IMG/VR virus record: IMGVR_UViG_2534681702_000003
Location: 1 to 33,145 of that record
Source of the DNA: a virus
Lineage: Duplodnaviria; Heunggongvirae; Uroviricota; Caudoviricetes
Strand: one strand, 5' to 3'
Length of the DNA: 33,145 nt
Positions 4,528 to 33,145 of the stretch are shown in pieces; the first letter of the stretch is position 1; every line of letters starts with the position of its first letter. The notes under the pieces are model-generated. The model was not told the DNA's origin and searched no databases. It worked only from the letters and a program-made list of their open reading frames with translations. Position numbers and translations under genes: made by a program.

Positions 4528-4585
4528 AAAAAGGGCAGCAGAGCAGTCACGGAGTAAAACTGATACCACCAAACGTCACCAGAAA
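4528..4585 (-). ncRNA. dicF: DicF small RNA
   Basis: Minus-strand sequence UUUCUGGUGACGUUUGGUGGUAUCAGUUUUACUCCGUGACUGCUCUGCUGCCCUUUUU matches recalled DicF, ends in U-tract, lies immediately upstream of dicB. Confidence 0.8.
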
Positions 4586-9505: not shown

Positions 9506-9777
9506 ATATCGACGCAACAATGACGATTGGTACGGCCCTCAATACGGGGCTGGCGCTTCTTGGTTGGTGCTACATCATGTTCTGCTCATGGCGGTGGCTG
9601 TCACTGATGTTACTGAAAGAATGGAATAAACGCTGTAAACAGACGCAGCGGCAGAAGGCAATGAATGCGTTTTTTGAGACCTTCGATATTGACAGTATAG
9701 AACCAGGAGAGCCAGCTCGCGTGATTAGCAGAGGTGACGTTGTAATTCTTGTATACCGGAGTGAAGAGAAAGCATAA
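9502..9777 (+). CDS. Hypothetical small membrane protein (91 aa)
   Basis: GTG start after AGGAGGAGG; one predicted hydrophobic helix. Confidence 0.45.
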   Translation: MNIDATMTIGTALNTGLALLGWCYIMFCSWRWLSLMLLKEWNKRCKQTQRQKAMNAFFETFDIDSIEPGEPARVISRGDVVILVYRSEEKA

Positions 9778-9891
9778 TCCAAATCTGAATAATTAAATCC
9801 AGCACTGTAAATAAAATTTAATCCTTAACCGGAGGGATTTCTGCACCCTCAGAACATCAGGAGGCCGCCCGAAAGGGCGGTGGAGATAATA

Positions 9892-10416
9892 ATGGAAATA
9901 ACTAAAGAACGATTATTGGAAATAGCAAATCTTAGTGAAAGGGCATTAAGTGATGGGAGGATTATTTCTCCTGATGCTTATGAATCAGTTACAAGTATAG
10001 AAATAATAACGATGGCCAGGATGCTTCTTGGTTGCCTCAAAAAAGAATATAAAAAAAAGGTGGATAGCAATGCTAATATATATGATATTTTGGACAGTTG
10101 GGGGGCTTGGGCTGCAGCTGGAAATAGTTCTATCAACTGGCAGCAAGTGGCTGATAAATATAAAGATGTAGTACCTCATGGTAAGAAATTACGCCGTCAG
10201 TGTGGCAACGATGAAGGTCGTATGATTGATACCTGCATGTTGAAGCTTAAACAATATAGAATAGATGACTATGAGTTAATTATCGCTCATTTTGTTATAG
10301 GTATATCTTTGCGTACAATAGCACGAAGGTACAAATGTTCAGATGGAACAATAAGAAAGAATATACAACTTACAATGGGAGTATTGTTAGGATTGTCTTT
10401 TTATGTGCAATTATAG
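9892..10416 (+). CDS. Antitermination protein Q-like (phage 82/QuuD family) with about 60-aa N-terminal extension
   Basis: Motifs LDSWGAWAAAG, RRQCGNDEGRMIDTCMLKLK, CSDGTIRKNIQ align with recalled QuuD (WGAWAA, CCDDDAMIICGCMARLKK, CSDGYIGKRLQ); GGTGGAG RBS; GNRA hairpin CCGCCCGAAAGGGCGG at 9864-9879. Confidence 0.65.
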   Translation: MEITKERLLEIANLSERALSDGRIISPDAYESVTSIEIITMARMLLGCLKKEYKKKVDSNANIYDILDSWGAWAAAGNSSINWQQVADKYKDVVPHGKKLRRQCGNDEGRMIDTCMLKLKQYRIDDYELIIAHFVIGISLRTIARRYKCSDGTIRKNIQLTMGVLLGLSFYVQL

Positions 10417-10421
10417 ATATA

Positions 10422-10901
10422 TCACATGAGCCTTGTTATGTCCTTTAGACGCGACCAGGTAGTATAAAATTTTTTAAATGTAATAAGCAGGAAAAAAATT
10501 CCCACTTGGAGTAATAGTTGGGCATATGTGTGCTCGTCGGCATCTTTTACTAGTGGGAATTTAAACTTTAGTGTATCAGGGAAAAATAATAAAATGATAA
10601 AAATAATACAAACTGATAGTAACCATCCCATAGTGGAGTGCATTTCTTCGGTCAGTTTTTTCAAATAACCAGTTTTTCCTATATTTCTAATTAGCGTATT
10701 ATCTCTAGCTGAAGCAATCAAGGTAAGCGAACCTAAAACAAAGCCAAATAATATCCCAGAAAATGTAGAAACGGCCGAAGCGATTGGCTGAATTTGTGCA
10801 AAATTTAGCTTTGCAGAAAGAGGCCATGCGATGATACAAAAAACAACAGAGGCTAAATTATAACCATAACTGTACAAAGTTATCAATTTCCCCTTTTTCA
10901 T
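10422..10901 (-). CDS. Four-helix membrane protein (159 aa), RexB-like architecture
   Basis: Four hydrophobic segments (about aa 16-30, 40-64, 90-107, 126-143); GGAG RBS; 15 bp downstream of the 304-aa gene. Confidence 0.75.
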   Translation of the reverse strand: MKKGKLITLYSYGYNLASVVFCIIAWPLSAKLNFAQIQPIASAVSTFSGILFGFVLGSLTLIASARDNTLIRNIGKTGYLKKLTEEMHSTMGWLLSVCIIFIILLFFPDTLKFKFPLVKDADEHTYAQLLLQVGIFFLLITFKKFYTTWSRLKDITRLM

Positions 10902-10916
10902 ACCATCGCTCCAAAA

Positions 10917-11831
10917 TTAATCAACTCTTTGATTGGCTACTCCAAAGTATGCCTTCAATTCATCATCTTTACTATCTTTTGCAAGAGTTAAGGCGCTCCA
11001 AATGCTGCCAACTAATGGATACCTACCTCCAAGTTCAACATCTGTGTAGTAGACTAATTTGTCTGCTACAAGATCGATAGGATGCTGTACACCGGTCTCA
11101 ATGTCTTGGGTTTCTAGTTTAAGTTTTTCAACCTCAAAAGTCTCTAGTGTTTCTTTAAAGGCTCTTTTTAGTTGAGAACCTAGATAGCGAGATTCAGGAT
11201 CTTCAGAACGACTATCCCCACGTAATGTAAGATTTACTTTGGCAGAATTAGTACCATTTAGAGTGGCTATCAATGCATTGTTGAAGTTATGTTCAATATC
11301 CTCATATAGTTGCACATTCTTTGGCCGAGCGATACCGATTTCTAGAGTTTTGATTCGAACTTCATTACGCATCAACCACTTTAAACTACTGGTCTGAATG
11401 ATGGGATTAACAGTTGTATTTTGTGAACTGTTGGAAAGATATTTACTTAATAGCAACCAGCCATAACAGAGTCTGTTTCGTTGAATTATTAAAACTGAGT
11501 CTTGGGTATAAAAATGAAAATAAGCTTTTTCTAATAAGTTTTCATTGATTTCAAGTTTAATTTCTCTTTCTTCACCTCCGGCTACAGCAACATGAGGGAG
11601 ATTATTGGTTCTGTGTTTTCCTATAACTCCCCTGAAACCATAGTCGGTTCTTTCCATGAAGCGCATTTCAACTAGTTTATTTCCTATTTTACGTACAGTT
11701 TTGTCTCGGCCTTCGCTGTATGACTCAAAAATTTTTGAAAAAACAGCTTCAGGTGAATTAACTCCTGCATTTGTATCAGTGCTTATAGTGTGACATTGAT
11801 AAAAATCGAAGAAAAAGCGCTTGCTAGCCAT
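10917..11831 (-). CDS. Hypothetical soluble protein (304 aa), first gene of two-gene operon
   Basis: Uninterrupted low-GC ORF; no recognised domain; upstream AT-rich 270-bp promoter region. Confidence 0.75.
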   Translation of the reverse strand: MASKRFFFDFYQCHTISTDTNAGVNSPEAVFSKIFESYSEGRDKTVRKIGNKLVEMRFMERTDYGFRGVIGKHRTNNLPHVAVAGGEEREIKLEINENLLEKAYFHFYTQDSVLIIQRNRLCYGWLLLSKYLSNSSQNTTVNPIIQTSSLKWLMRNEVRIKTLEIGIARPKNVQLYEDIEHNFNNALIATLNGTNSAKVNLTLRGDSRSEDPESRYLGSQLKRAFKETLETFEVEKLKLETQDIETGVQHPIDLVADKLVYYTDVELGGRYPLVGSIWSALTLAKDSKDDELKAYFGVANQRVD

Positions 11832-12154
11832 TGCAAAAATTTCCTGTAAAAAATAATTACATACTTAAGATACTACAAAGAATAATGCGTACGCAAAATT
11901 TTTTGTTGAGTAGAATATGTTCGCGGGGTATTTTTCGTTAAGATATAATTACCATGGTAACTTTTGCGTTGGTAATGCATTATGTGGTGGAGAAAAAGAG
12001 AGAGTCTTATCTTTAAATTATCGCCAGCCTATATGACTATATGAGTAGTATTTAGATGGGAAATTGTTGAGTTATTGAAAGGAACCATAACCTTTATGTA
12101 AAATTACTGCGGGTGCTTGAGGTTATCTGTCTCAGGCATGCCACCAAAAGGCAG

Positions 12155-12232
12155 ATAGAGAAAAGCCCCAGTTAACGTTACGCGTCCTGCAAGACGTTTA
12201 ACATTAATCTGAGGCTCAATCTATGAACGGCA
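12155..12232 (-). ncRNA. Predicted Sok-like antisense RNA
   Basis: Inferred from hok/sok organisation; candidate minus-strand promoter TTGCCT-17-TAACCT inside mok 5' end; boundaries approximate. Confidence 0.3.
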
Positions 12233-12435
12233 AATCTAGGTTAGCCTCTTACGTGCCGAAAGGCAAGGAGAAGCAGGCTATGAAGCAGCAAAAGGCGATG
12301 TTAATCGCCCTGATCGTCATCTGTTTAACCGTCATAGTGACGGCACTGGTAACGAGGAAAGACCTCTGCGAGGTACGAATCCGAACCGGCCAGAAGGAGG
12401 TCGCTGTCTTCACAGCTTACGAACCTGAGGAGTAA
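12223..12435 (+). CDS. Mok-like in-frame leader ORF overlapping hok
   Basis: 70-aa ORF whose last 51 codons are hok; same arrangement as mokC/hokC. Confidence 0.5.
   Translation: MNGKSRLASYVPKGKEKQAMKQQKAMLIALIVICLTVIVTALVTRKDLCEVRIRTGQKEVAVFTAYEPEE
12280..12435 (+). CDS. Hok/Gef-family type I toxin
   Basis: 51 aa MKQQKAMLIALIVICLTVIVTALVTRKDLCEVRIRTGQKEVAVFTAYEPEE, near-identical in pattern to recalled Gef/HokC; AAGGAG RBS. Confidence 0.85.
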   Translation: MKQQKAMLIALIVICLTVIVTALVTRKDLCEVRIRTGQKEVAVFTAYEPEE

Positions 12436-12503
12436 GAGACCAGGTGAGGGAGAAATCCCTCGCCACCTCTGATGAGTCAGGCATCCTCAACGCACCCGCA
12501 CTT

Positions 12504-12530
12504 AACCCGCTTCGGCGGGTTTTGTTTTTT
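12504..12530 (+). terminator. Rho-independent terminator of hok transcript
   Basis: AACCCGC-TTCG-GCGGGTT followed by TTTGTTTTTT. Confidence 0.7.
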
Positions 12531-12602
12531 CCTGGCATTCTGGTTTACAATTCGCACGCCAGCCTGAACAACTGGCACCTGCTGCGCCAGCAGAGACAAC
12601 CG

Positions 12603-12875
12603 ATGGCGCACAAAACCAAATTTCACAATTCTGATACCGCCCTTGCCATCCGGCATGGGCGGCGTTCACACGCATTTAAAACCGACTGGTACCAACACCC
12701 ACCATGTACTGAAGAACAGGCCGAATGGCTAATTCATAACTACCGCAGACGCGGATACGAGATTAAGAAAGCCCTCAGCCTCGATTATCGTCACTGGATA
12801 ATCTATGTCAGGCTCCCTTATTCCGAACGCCCACCGCGTCCGTCCCGCACATTCCAGCAACGCATCTGGAGGTAA
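12603..12875 (+). CDS. Hypothetical protein (90 aa), nin-like region
   Basis: ORF downstream of hok terminator, stop 1 nt before next gene's start; start codon uncertain. Confidence 0.4.
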   Translation: MAHKTKFHNSDTALAIRHGRRSHAFKTDWYQHPPCTEEQAEWLIHNYRRRGYEIKKALSLDYRHWIIYVRLPYSERPPRPSRTFQQRIWR

Positions 12876-32878: not shown

Positions 32879-33145
32879 ATGCTGCCGCAGCATAGCGATA
32901 TTGAAATAGCCTGGTATGCTTCGATACAGCAGGAGCCGAATGGCTGGAAGACCGTCACCACACAGTTCTACATCCAGGAATTCAGTGAGCATATTGCGCC
33001 ACTTCAGGATGCTGTAGATCTGGAGATCGCAACGGAGGAAGAAAACTCGTTGCTGGAAGCCTGGAAGAAGTATCGGGTGTTGCTGAACCGTGTTGATACA
33101 TCAACCGCACCTGATATTGAGTGGCCGACTTCACCTGCAGAGTAA
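32879..33145 (+). pseudogene. Tail fibre assembly (tfa) 3' fragment
   Basis: 88-aa ORF ending ...[53 protein letters not shown], matching recalled lambda Tfa C-terminus; too short for a complete tfa. Confidence 0.6.

What the first reader, a model, noticed from the sequence alone, without database searches (positions are those of the whole stretch)
12105..12530. Complete hok/sok-type type I toxin-antitoxin locus with 5'-3' end complementarity
A Hok/Gef toxin ORF (51 aa) with an in-frame mok-like leader is followed by a terminator. The 5' element GCGGGTGCTTGAGG (12109-12122) is complementary to the 3' element CCTCAACGCACCCGC (12485-12499), the classic tac/fbi long-range pairing that keeps full-length hok mRNA inactive. 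A candidate Sok promoter lies on the opposite strand inside the mok 5' end. The locus looks intact and sits directly beside the low-GC island.
Basis: partly seen in the sequence, partly recalled or inferred. Interest (0 to 1): 0.5.

Follow-up and report, generated by a model that had tools for sequence, protein, structure and literature searches.

The report
Intact prophage hok/mok/sok toxin-antitoxin locus

Summary
Confirmed, and already known. Window 12075-12530 holds a full hok/mok/sok type I toxin-antitoxin cassette in a Qin-like lambdoid prophage next to potC. RefSeq annotates the identical sequence as hokD.

- Rfam RF01794 scores 108.7 bits and Pfam HOK_GEF gives E=1.8e-23.
- The locus is 91% identical in DNA to hokW-sokW of phage 933W/Sp5, which has been validated experimentally.
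- The claimed 5'-3' complementarity is real: 12111-12122 pairs with 12485-12497, with C12491 bulged.
- That pairing appears in the MFE and centroid folds. Only 6 of 2000 shuffled 3'UTRs match it.
- It is kept in 94% of cells across 84 homologues from five named genera, against 33-52% for slid controls. There is U-A to C-G covariation.
- The other family elements are all present: metastable 5' hairpin, ucb anti-SD, mok SD, dcb, 3' protective hairpin, and a Sok promoter, tail and terminator hairpin.
The hok promoter lies just upstream at 12075-12104. A conserved TadA-editing motif sits at Tyr47. The Sok region is a diversity hot spot.
- K-12 hokD is a 5'-truncated derivative of this type of locus.
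- Toxicity and Sok expression are inferred here, not shown.

Interest is low.

The parts
12075..12104 (+). hok mRNA promoter: -35 TTGAAA (12075-80), 18-nt spacer, -10 TAAAAT (12099-104)
   Evidence: Consensus scan gives 10 of 12 matches and it is the only promoter-like hit in 11850-12700. The -10 lies inside the block conserved across genera, which starts at 12092-12099. The -35 lies in window-specific sequence on the island side.
12111..12530 (+). Full-length hok mRNA (predicted, about 420 nt)
   Evidence: G12111 is 7 nt after the -10, and the Rfam model starts there. The 3' end is set by the terminator. The fold is -166.8 kcal/mol with z = -6.6.
12111..12122 (+). tac (translational activator element), GGGUGCUUGAGG
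   Evidence: It has three mutually exclusive partners. fbi: 94.3% of cells paired. Metastable partner 12130-39: 97.9% paired. ucb: 98.8% paired. Nucleotide 4 (U/C) covaries with both fbi and the metastable partner.
12130..12139 (+). 3' arm of the metastable 5' hairpin that sequesters tac in the nascent transcript
   Evidence: The fold of the 112-nt nascent RNA pairs 12113-22 with 12130-39. Across 84 homologues, 4 pairs change on both sides.
12163..12169 (+). ucb / anti-SD (AAGCCCC)
   Evidence: It pairs with the mok SD in the full-length fold and with tac in the isolated 5' 65 nt and in the Rfam consensus. It is nearly invariant.
12161..12231 (-). Sok antisense RNA (predicted, about 67-71 nt): 14-nt single-stranded 5' tail, long hairpin, U-tail
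   Evidence: It maps onto the annotated sokW of 933W. The fold is -29.0 kcal/mol with z = -5.45. sokW RNA was detected by Northern blot in Sp5 (PMC8621323). Sok covers the mok SD and mok AUG.
12211..12214 (+). mok Shine-Dalgarno (GAGG)
   Evidence: It lies 8 nt upstream of AUG 12223. It is paired to ucb in every full-length and truncated MFE fold. The GAGGC/GCCUC pairing with dcb is invariant.
12223..12435 (+). mok leader ORF (70 aa, in frame with hok, same stop codon)
   Evidence: ORF list. The ATG is nearly invariant. The frame relative to hok varies in the family, so translation rather than the peptide sequence is what is conserved.
12238..12266 (-). Sok promoter: -35 TTGCCT (12266->12261), 17-nt spacer, -10 TAACCT (12243->12238); +1 at about G12231
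   Evidence: Read from the sequence. It is identical in 933W. The A2 and T6 positions of the -10 are invariant in 84 homologues. An R1-like plasmid has the same architecture, TTGCGC-17-TATCCT. The generic scan did not call it.
12243..12248 (+). dcb (AGCCUC), pairs with the mok SD region in the processed mRNA
   Evidence: When tac/ucb is enforced on the truncated RNA, the SD/dcb stem forms spontaneously. The core pairs are 99-100% conserved.
12265..12270 (+). hok Shine-Dalgarno (AAGGAG)
   Evidence: Read from the sequence, 9 nt upstream of AUG 12280. Conserved.
12280..12435 (+). hok toxin ORF (51 aa)
   Evidence: Pfam HOK_GEF, E=1.8e-23. It is 98% identical to K-12 HokD, 90% to HokW and 43% to R1 Hok. 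Diversity among close relatives is pi 0-0.02.
12418..12423 (+). UACGAA at Tyr47-Glu48: TadA A-to-I editing motif (Tyr to Cys recoding, edited base A12419)
   Evidence: TACGAA is invariant in all 84 homologues. The role is taken from the literature on hokB/C/D/E (bioRxiv 10.1101/2025.08.07.668861). Editing was not tested here.
12443..12464 (+). 3' UTR hairpin (9 bp, GAAA loop), the expected protective end of the processed mRNA
   Evidence: Present in the MFE. It is 98.2% paired, with 4 pairs changed on both sides (helix 15). The analogous R1 stem-loop protects the truncated hok mRNA (PMC9841398).
12485..12499 (+). fbi (fold-back inhibitory element), CCUCAACGCACCC(GC)
   Evidence: Homology of distant genera ends right after it, at about 12499-12504.
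12504..12530 (+). Intrinsic terminator (stem 12504-21, U-run)
   Evidence: Terminator scan. Shared by close relatives and by K-12 hokD.

Best explanation
Window 12075-12530 is a complete hok/mok/sok type I toxin-antitoxin cassette carried in the early-right region of a Qin-like lambdoid prophage of E. coli. I propose it works as described for R1 hok/sok and for hokW-sokW.

What the sequence and folds show:
1. A promoter at 12075-12104 would make a stable mRNA of about 420 nt.
2. While the RNA is nascent, its 5' tac element is held in a local metastable hairpin (12113-22 with 12130-39).
3. When the RNA is complete, tac pairs with fbi at the 3' end (12485-97). The anti-SD box ucb (12163-69) then occludes the mok ribosome-binding site, so the full-length RNA is neither translated nor bound by Sok.

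What is inferred from the family:
4. Slow 3' exonucleolytic trimming back to the 12443-64 hairpin removes fbi.
5. tac then takes ucb, the mok SD pairs with dcb, and the RNA becomes translatable. It also becomes a target for Sok.
6. Sok is an unstable antisense RNA of about 70 nt, made from a promoter inside mok. Its 5' tail and hairpin cover the mok SD and AUG. The duplex is cut by RNase III.
7. If Sok synthesis stops, mok and then hok are translated. This could follow prophage loss, prophage induction, or transcription shut-off by an infecting phage. The 51-aa Hok then depolarises the inner membrane.
8. Full toxicity probably also needs TadA editing of the Tyr47 codon to Cys.

The likely benefit to the prophage is faster lysis and release on induction, as shown for hokW-sokW, and/or stabilisation of the prophage.

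The confidence given (0.85) is for 'a functional hok/mok/sok cassette working by this mechanism'. Family identity alone is about 0.97.
For: Family models and annotation.

Closest validated relative: 91% DNA identity to the annotated mokW/hokW/sokW. Its toxicity, Sok-dependent neutralisation, RNase III/Hfq dependence, Northern detection of both RNAs and role in Sp5 release are published (PMC8621323).

The tac-fbi pairing:
- It is in the MFE and centroid.
- It is statistically unusual.
- It is conserved in 94.3% of cells across 84 homologues from Escherichia, Kluyvera, Photorhabdus, Erwinia, Pantoea and relatives, against 33-52% when the partner is slid. There are 11 C-G for U-A exchanges.

Other RNA elements:
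- The same tac nucleotide covaries with its metastable-hairpin partner.
- tac/ucb and SD/dcb complementarities are present and conserved.
- Once fbi is removed, the open form is within 1.1-1.8 kcal/mol of the MFE. This is closer than in an R1-like positive control, where the gap is 2.0-4.4 kcal/mol.
- The Sok candidate folds into a 5' tail plus terminator hairpin.
- The conserved cassette boundaries, 12092 to about 12500/12538, coincide with the promoter -10 and with fbi/terminator.

The element definitions come from PMC9841398.
Against: Nothing here is experimental for this allele.

- The Sok -10 (TAACCT) is weak by consensus and was not called by the scan.
- MFE folding of 3'-truncated RNAs never gives the open tac/ucb form. 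The same failure occurs for the R1-like positive control, so this test is uninformative rather than negative.
- Hok carries an uncommon T39K change, and tac is followed by a unique C12123U.
- Chromosomal hok loci in K-12 are known to be inactivated, so intactness by eye is not proof of function.
- Which biological role applies in this prophage (lysis helper, stabiliser or abortive infection) is extrapolated.
Confidence: 0.85

Rival explanations
1. The locus is a decayed, non-functional relic, like most chromosomal hok loci of E. coli K-12. Its conserved appearance would then reflect recent descent, not function.
For: K-12 hokD lacks the whole 5' regulatory half; homology starts only at window 12263. 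A whole class of loci shares that truncation. The window allele has a rare T39K change, a unique C12123U and a weak Sok -10. The toxin has only one hard-coded Cys of the disulfide pair.
Against: There is no stop, frameshift, IS element or deletion. Every regulatory box is present and pairs correctly. C12123U keeps a U-G pair, and K39 aligns with Arg in the active R1 Hok. The hok CDS is under strong conservation among phage copies (pi 0-0.02). The same Sok promoter drives a functional sokW. The Tyr codon in UACGAA context is the majority state in the family.
Confidence: 0.1
2. The cassette is a working hok/sok, but its main role here is anti-phage abortive infection. It would form a small defence island with the adjacent low-GC two-gene module, rather than aiding lysis or stabilising the prophage.
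For: It sits directly beside a low-GC moron island. That island encodes DUF6731 and a multi-TM protein with a weak RexB-like PADLOC hit (E=0.0015). hok/sok has a reported role in phage defence (cited).
Against: A survey found hok not enriched near defence systems: 12% against 9.4% expected by chance. The neighbour's defence assignment is weak and below any curated threshold. The only direct experiment on a close prophage homologue points to lysis and release.
Confidence: 0.2
3. The 5'-3' complementarity is a coincidence and has no regulatory meaning.
For: It is only 12-14 bp with a bulge, and 6 of 2000 shuffles reach the same energy.
Against: The pairing is retained with compensatory changes across genera. 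It is the closing helix of the MFE and the centroid. Homology of distant relatives ends exactly after it. The equivalent pairing is established experimentally in R1.
Confidence: 0.02

Closest known systems
hokW-mokW-sokW of Stx2 phage 933W / Sakai prophage Sp5
   Same: About 91% DNA identity over 12094-12507. Hok is 90% identical. Same mok frame, identical Sok promoter, identical tac, ucb, dcb and fbi. Also resides on a lambdoid prophage. Experimentally a type I TA system that speeds lysis and phage release.
   Different: The Sok 5' tail and its target differ: mok codons 2-6 read ATGAACGGCAAATCT here and ATGCTGAACACATGT there. There are five Hok residue differences. 933W lacks the terminator hairpin right after fbi. 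The position in the phage genome differs (near attR in 933W; next to a Q-like gene and a DUF968 gene here). The -35 and upstream sequences are unrelated.
E. coli K-12 hokD (relF) in cryptic prophage Qin
   Same: The toxin is 98% identical, with the single difference T39K. The hok SD, CDS, 3' hairpin, fbi and terminator are shared. The downstream YdfU/DUF968 neighbour is 78% identical, and DicF lies in the same prophage in both; dicB was seen only in the window's prophage. RefSeq uses this name for the window gene.
   Different: K-12 hokD has lost everything upstream of window 12263: promoter, tac, ucb, the mok start and Sok. It sits behind relBE instead. The window shows the complete form. The small gene between hok and the DUF968 gene is unrelated to rem.
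hok/sok (parB) of plasmid R1 and IncF relatives
   Same: The architecture is the same element by element: tac/fbi, metastable hairpin, ucb, mok SD, dcb, in-frame mok of about 70 codons, a Sok promoter with a 17-nt spacer inside mok, and a terminator after fbi.
   Different: Hok is only 43% identical. Nucleotide similarity is limited to short conserved boxes. R1 is plasmid-borne, with an established post-segregational killing role. R1 Hok also has Tyr at the second Cys position, followed by Glu.

Membership tests
[quoted passage not shown] | Hok-family toxin ORF of about 50 aa with an N-terminal transmembrane helix and a conserved C-terminal part | tested here: met
   PF01848, E=1.8e-23, 82.3 bits against a cut-off of 22. 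98% identical to K-12 HokD. NCBIfam Hok models match but below their curated cut-offs.
[quoted passage not shown] | Conserved structured 5' leader of the hok mRNA (the Rfam covariance model) | tested here: met
   RF01794, 108.7 bits against a gathering score of 59, full-length match 12111-12285. The match is on the mRNA (+) strand. It therefore identifies the locus, not the orientation of Sok.
[quoted passage not shown] | mok leader ORF with its own SD, overlapping hok, on whose translation hok depends | tested here: met
   ATG 12223, SD GAGG 12211-14, in frame with hok. The start codon is nearly invariant in 84 homologues. Translational coupling itself is not testable here.
[quoted passage not shown] | tac-fbi pairing of the 5' and 3' ends in the full-length mRNA | tested here: met
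   In the MFE and centroid. 6 of 2000 shuffles do as well. 94.3% paired with covariation, against 33-52% for slid controls.
[quoted passage not shown] | ucb (anti-SD) sequesters the mok SD in the closed form; tac/ucb and SD/dcb stems are possible in the processed form | tested here: met
   SD-ucb pairs appear in all folds. tac/ucb is 98.8% paired and the SD/dcb core about 100% paired across homologues. The open form is 1.1-1.8 kcal/mol above the MFE after fbi removal. These pairs are invariant, so there is no covariation evidence for them.
[quoted passage not shown] | The actual closed-to-open refolding occurs on 3' processing | tested here: inconclusive
   MFE prediction keeps the closed form at every truncation point. 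It does the same for an R1-like positive control, so the method cannot decide.
[quoted passage not shown] | Metastable 5' hairpin sequestering tac during transcription | tested here: met
   Predicted in the 112-nt nascent RNA. 97.9% paired, with 4 pairs changed on both sides.
[quoted passage not shown] | cis-encoded antisense Sok RNA with its own promoter, covering the mok translation-initiation region | tested here: met
   TTGCCT-17-TAACCT on the - strand, then a 14-nt tail, a hairpin and a U-tail. Identical promoter and equivalent coordinates to the annotated, Northern-detected sokW. This is met by sequence and homology only; the generic promoter scan did not call it.
[quoted passage not shown] | Hok is toxic and Sok neutralises it | not testable with these tools
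   Shown for the 90%/91% identical hokW-sokW, not for this allele.

The most novel reading that the evidence does not exclude
The antitoxin part of prophage hok/sok cassettes may be evolving as discrete specificity types, analogous to phage immunity types. Poly-lysogens could then carry several hok loci whose Sok RNAs do not cross-protect.

Among 45 close E. coli phage copies, diversity peaks in the Sok region: pi is 0.19-0.41 at 12171-12240 (peaking at 0.33-0.41), against 0-0.02 in the hok CDS. There are 14 variants of the Sok 5'-tail target. No two co-resident complete loci in 12 genomes share a tail.

The window's tail differs from every other sampled tail by at least 6 of 20 nt. It would therefore be a rare or new specificity type.
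Probability: 0.35. Interest if true: 0.35.

Novelty: already known. Interest (0 to 1): 0.15.

Why it matters
The practical value is for annotation. RefSeq marks only a 'hokD' CDS here. The mok leader, the Sok RNA and the mRNA switch elements can now be placed to the base.

The window also shows the complete form of the locus whose 5' half has been replaced by relBE in E. coli K-12 Qin. That explains why K-12 hokD carries an orphan fbi and terminator.

For prophage biology, it adds one more intact cassette of the type shown to accelerate lysis in Sp5. It opens no new question and changes no current model.

Tried and rejected
1. Thermodynamic folding of 3'-truncated transcripts, to see the open tac/ucb form. 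It never appeared as the MFE at 13 truncation points short of fbi. I rejected this as evidence against the switch because an R1-like positive control fails in the same way. Constrained folds put the open form within 1-2 kcal/mol.

2. Generic sigma-70 scan for the Sok promoter. It was not called. I relied on identity with the sokW promoter and on invariance of the key -10 positions instead.

3. My first nhmmer run appeared to show that homology starts exactly at 12111. That was an artefact of where the query started. Rerunning with 80 nt more upstream puts the boundary at 12092-12099.

4. I considered the 90-aa ORF 12603-12875 as a Rem homologue, to complete synteny with Qin. There was no similarity.

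5. I considered the minus-strand ORFs 12249-12413 and 12477-12656; the latter is a RefSeq 'hypothetical protein'. The latter has no Pfam family match (the former was not searched) and it overlaps fbi and the terminator. I judge both probably spurious.

6. PADLOC on the island proteins gave only weak sub-threshold hits. I made no defence-system claim.

7. I looked for a tRNA-Arg-like hairpin presenting the UACGAA motif. By inspection only a 3-bp stem is possible, so I make no structural claim about the editing site.

Full report
**Observation**

- GCGGGTGCTTGAGG lies at 12109-12122 and CCTCAACGCACCCGC at 12485-12499. They are complementary as 8 + 6 bp around a single bulged C (12491).
- The 51-aa ORF is 12280-12435. 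An in-frame ATG at 12223 extends it to 70 aa.
- A terminator-like hairpin (12504-21) is followed by a T-run reaching about 12530.
- GC content falls to 0.32-0.40 between about 9700 and 12100 and is 0.49-0.55 to the right, so the locus does abut a low-GC island.

**Is the pairing more than chance?**

- The 420-nt RNA 12111-12530 folds to -166.8 kcal/mol (z = -6.6). Nucleotides 1-12 pair with 12485-12497 in both the MFE and the centroid.
- The isolated tac-fbi duplex is -21.1 kcal/mol. Six of 2000 dinucleotide shuffles of the 3'UTR reach this value.
- In the whole 33-kb window, on both strands, the only other equally good site is the trivial antisense of tac.

**Identity**

- Rfam RF01794 ('sok') matches 12111-12285 over its full length at 108.7 bits, against a gathering score of 59. 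The match is on the plus strand. The model therefore describes the hok mRNA leader, not Sok's own strand.
- Pfam HOK_GEF matches at E = 1.8e-23. PHROG 251 'MokW-like host killing' matches at 7.7e-32.
- The 511-bp region is 100% identical in at least nine complete E. coli genomes, where RefSeq annotates only a 'hokD' CDS.
- 4733 of 5426 E. coli genomes have a related sequence, with a median of two places per genome.
- In strain 504838 the surrounding prophage sits next to potC. It runs from int and xis through dicB, a cI/cro-like region, replication genes and a Q-like gene to the low-GC island. It then continues through hok, a DUF968 gene, rusA, a second Q-like gene, two tRNAs, lysis genes and terminase.
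- In phages, the best-annotated relative is 933W. There, mokW, hokW and a 71-nt sokW antisense RNA are annotated.
- The window aligns to that locus at about 91% identity. sokW maps to window 12161-12231 on the minus strand.

**Anatomy**

Element definitions follow PMC9841398.
- hok promoter: TTGAAA-18-TAAAAT at 12075-12104.
- tac: 12111-22.
- Partner of the metastable hairpin: 12130-39.
- ucb / anti-SD: AAGCCCC at 12163-69.
- mok SD: GAGG at 12211-14.
- mok AUG: 12223.
- dcb: AGCCUC at 12243-48.
- hok SD: AAGGAG at 12265-70.
- hok: 12280-12435.
- 3' hairpin: 12443-64, a 9-bp stem with a GAAA loop.
- fbi: 12485-97.
- Terminator: 12504-30.

On the minus strand, TTGCCT (12266->12261), a 17-nt spacer and TAACCT (12243->12238) precede G12231. 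The RNA from 12231 to about 12161 folds at -29.0 kcal/mol (z = -5.45). It has a 14-nt single-stranded 5' tail, one long hairpin and a U-tail. It is complementary to the mok SD and AUG. The generic promoter scan did not call this promoter, because its -10 matches only 3 of 6 positions. However, it is identical in 933W. An R1-like plasmid copy has the same layout, TTGCGC-17-TATCCT. The two key -10 positions (A2, T6) are invariant in 84 homologues.

**Comparative test**

- Scans of genome and viral contigs with the Hok peptide gave 135 loci.
- With a query extended upstream, nhmmer homology begins at 12092-12099, the -10 box. This holds in Escherichia, Kluyvera, Photorhabdus, Erwinia and Pantoea.
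- Homology ends at about 12499-12504 in distant genera and about 12530-12540 in close ones. The cassette boundaries therefore coincide with the promoter and with fbi/terminator.

On an 84-sequence alignment (A2):

| Helix | Cells paired | Control or note |
|---|---|---|
| tac-fbi | 94.3% | 33-52% when the 3' partner is slid by 1-3 columns; tac nt 4 is U-A in 69 and C-G in 11 sequences |
| tac with metastable-hairpin partner | 97.9% | the same tac nucleotide covaries: U-A 70, C-G 12 |
| tac/ucb | 98.8% | invariant, so no covariation evidence |
| SD/dcb core | about 100% | invariant, so no covariation evidence |
| 3' hairpin (helix 15) | 98.2% | four pairs changed on both sides |

The window's projected full-length fold as a whole is 87.9% paired, against 36-44% for slid controls.

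**The switch**

MFE folding of 3'-truncated RNAs keeps the SD-ucb closed form at every end-point. This is not informative, because an R1-like positive control (L138) behaves identically. With tac/ucb enforced, the SD/dcb stem forms spontaneously. The structure then lies only 1.1-1.8 kcal/mol above the MFE, compared with 2.0-4.4 kcal/mol in the R1-like control. The locus is therefore at least as competent for the switch as a validated one, but the switch itself is inferred.

**Intactness**

- There is no stop, frameshift, IS element or deletion.
- Two changes are specific to this allele.
  - C12123U is unique among the 84 sequences and converts a C-G pair to U-G.
  - Hok T39K is at a position where R1 Hok has Arg.
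- By contrast, K-12 hokD shares only window 12263 onward. relE replaces the promoter, tac, ucb, the mok start and Sok, leaving an orphan fbi and terminator.
- A whole class of phage loci shows the same truncation.
- The downstream DUF968 protein is 78% identical to K-12 YdfU. The window therefore shows the complete form of the Qin hokD region.

**Function**

For the close homologue hokW-sokW, PMC8621323 shows:
- HokW is toxic.
- Neutralisation depends on the sokW promoter.
- Neutralisation depends partly on RNase III and Hfq.
- Both RNAs are present in the lysogen.
- sokW is lost and HokW appears, in a RecA-dependent way, after mitomycin C.
- Growth retardation starts about 40 minutes later, and half as many phage are released, when the locus is deleted.

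A survey reports that hok is enriched in prophages (23% against 5% expected). It is not enriched near defence systems (12% against 9.4%). I therefore favour a lysis-helper and/or prophage-stabilising role here, with abortive infection as a less likely main role.

1. UACGAA at Tyr47-Glu48 (12418-23) is invariant in all 84 homologues. It is the TadA A-to-I editing context reported to recode Tyr to Cys in hokC/D/E. That change would supply the second Cys of the disulfide.
2. The frame of mok relative to hok is not conserved.
   - It is in frame in 44 of 84, including the window, the R1-like copy and 933W.
   - It is a 19-codon ORF ending in a UGA that overlaps the hok AUG in 25 of 84.
   - It is in the +1 frame, as a long ORF overlapping hok, in 10 of 84.
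3. Among 45 close E. coli phage copies, diversity is concentrated in the Sok region. pi is 0.19-0.41 at 12171-12240 (peaking at 0.33-0.41), against 0-0.02 in the hok CDS. There are 14 variants of the Sok-tail target.
4. In 12 genomes with several complete loci, none of 19 pairs shares a tail. The window's tail is at least 6 of 20 nt from all sampled tails.

**Verdict**

The observation and the interpretation are both correct. The object is a textbook hok/mok/sok cassette that is already annotated and has a closely related, experimentally characterised homologue. Novelty: already known. Interest: low.

Noticed in passing
window 9700-12100 (genes 9880-10416 +, 10422-10901 -, 10917-11831 -): The low-GC island (GC 0.32-0.40) holds a Q-family antiterminator (PF06530, 2.8e-30) and two genes convergent on it. 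One encodes a 304-aa DUF6731 protein. The other encodes a 159-aa multi-TM protein with weak PADLOC hits to RexB (E=0.0015) and PDC-M18B. The soluble-plus-membrane gene pair is in RexA/RexB-like order and could be an abortive-infection moron. All hits are sub-threshold.
   Followed up: partly
window 12418-12423: UACGAA at hok codons Tyr47-Glu48 is invariant in 84 homologues. The literature describes this context as a TadA A-to-I editing site that recodes Tyr to Cys in hokC/D/E. A second TACGAA spans Val32/Arg33 (12374-12379). There it would be synonymous, and it is not conserved.
   Followed up: partly
window 12171-12240: The Sok-encoding segment is the diversity hot spot among 45 close phage copies. 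pi is 0.19-0.41 there (peaking at 0.33-0.41), against 0-0.02 in the hok CDS. The variation includes an alternative apical Sok hairpin (an indel variant) and 14 variants of the Sok 5'-tail target. Co-resident loci in 12 genomes never share a tail.
   Followed up: partly
alignment A2 (mok region, window 12223-12279): The mok reading frame relative to hok differs among homologues. It is in frame in 44 of 84. It is a 19-codon ORF stopping at a UGA that overlaps the hok AUG in 25 of 84. It is in the +1 frame, as a long ORF overlapping hok, in 10 of 84. Only the translation of mok, not its peptide, appears to be conserved.
   Followed up: yes
L139 (E. coli K-12 Qin, relBE-hokD) compared with window 12263-12530: K-12 hokD keeps the hok SD, CDS, 3' hairpin, fbi and terminator. 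It has relE in place of everything upstream of window 12263. The fbi there is an orphan with no tac partner.
   Followed up: yes
window 12477-12656 (-) and 12603-12875 (+): RefSeq annotates a 59-aa minus-strand 'hypothetical protein' that overlaps fbi and the hok terminator. It has no family match and is probably spurious. The 90-aa plus-strand ORF matches phrog_1212 (unknown function) and is unrelated to K-12 Rem.
   Followed up: partly
window 4533-4584 (-), 16528-16600 (+), 16701-16774 (+), 32902-33105 (+): Other Rfam hits in the window are DicF sRNA (66.9 bits), two tRNAs (annotated Ile and Arg in the identical genome) and the IS009 RNA family (129.2 bits).
   Followed up: no
window 12111-12285: The Rfam family named 'sok antitoxin' (RF01794) matches the plus strand. 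It therefore models the hok mRNA leader in its open tac/ucb + SD/dcb structure, not the strand from which Sok is transcribed. This is worth remembering when Rfam hits are used to assign strand.
   Followed up: yes
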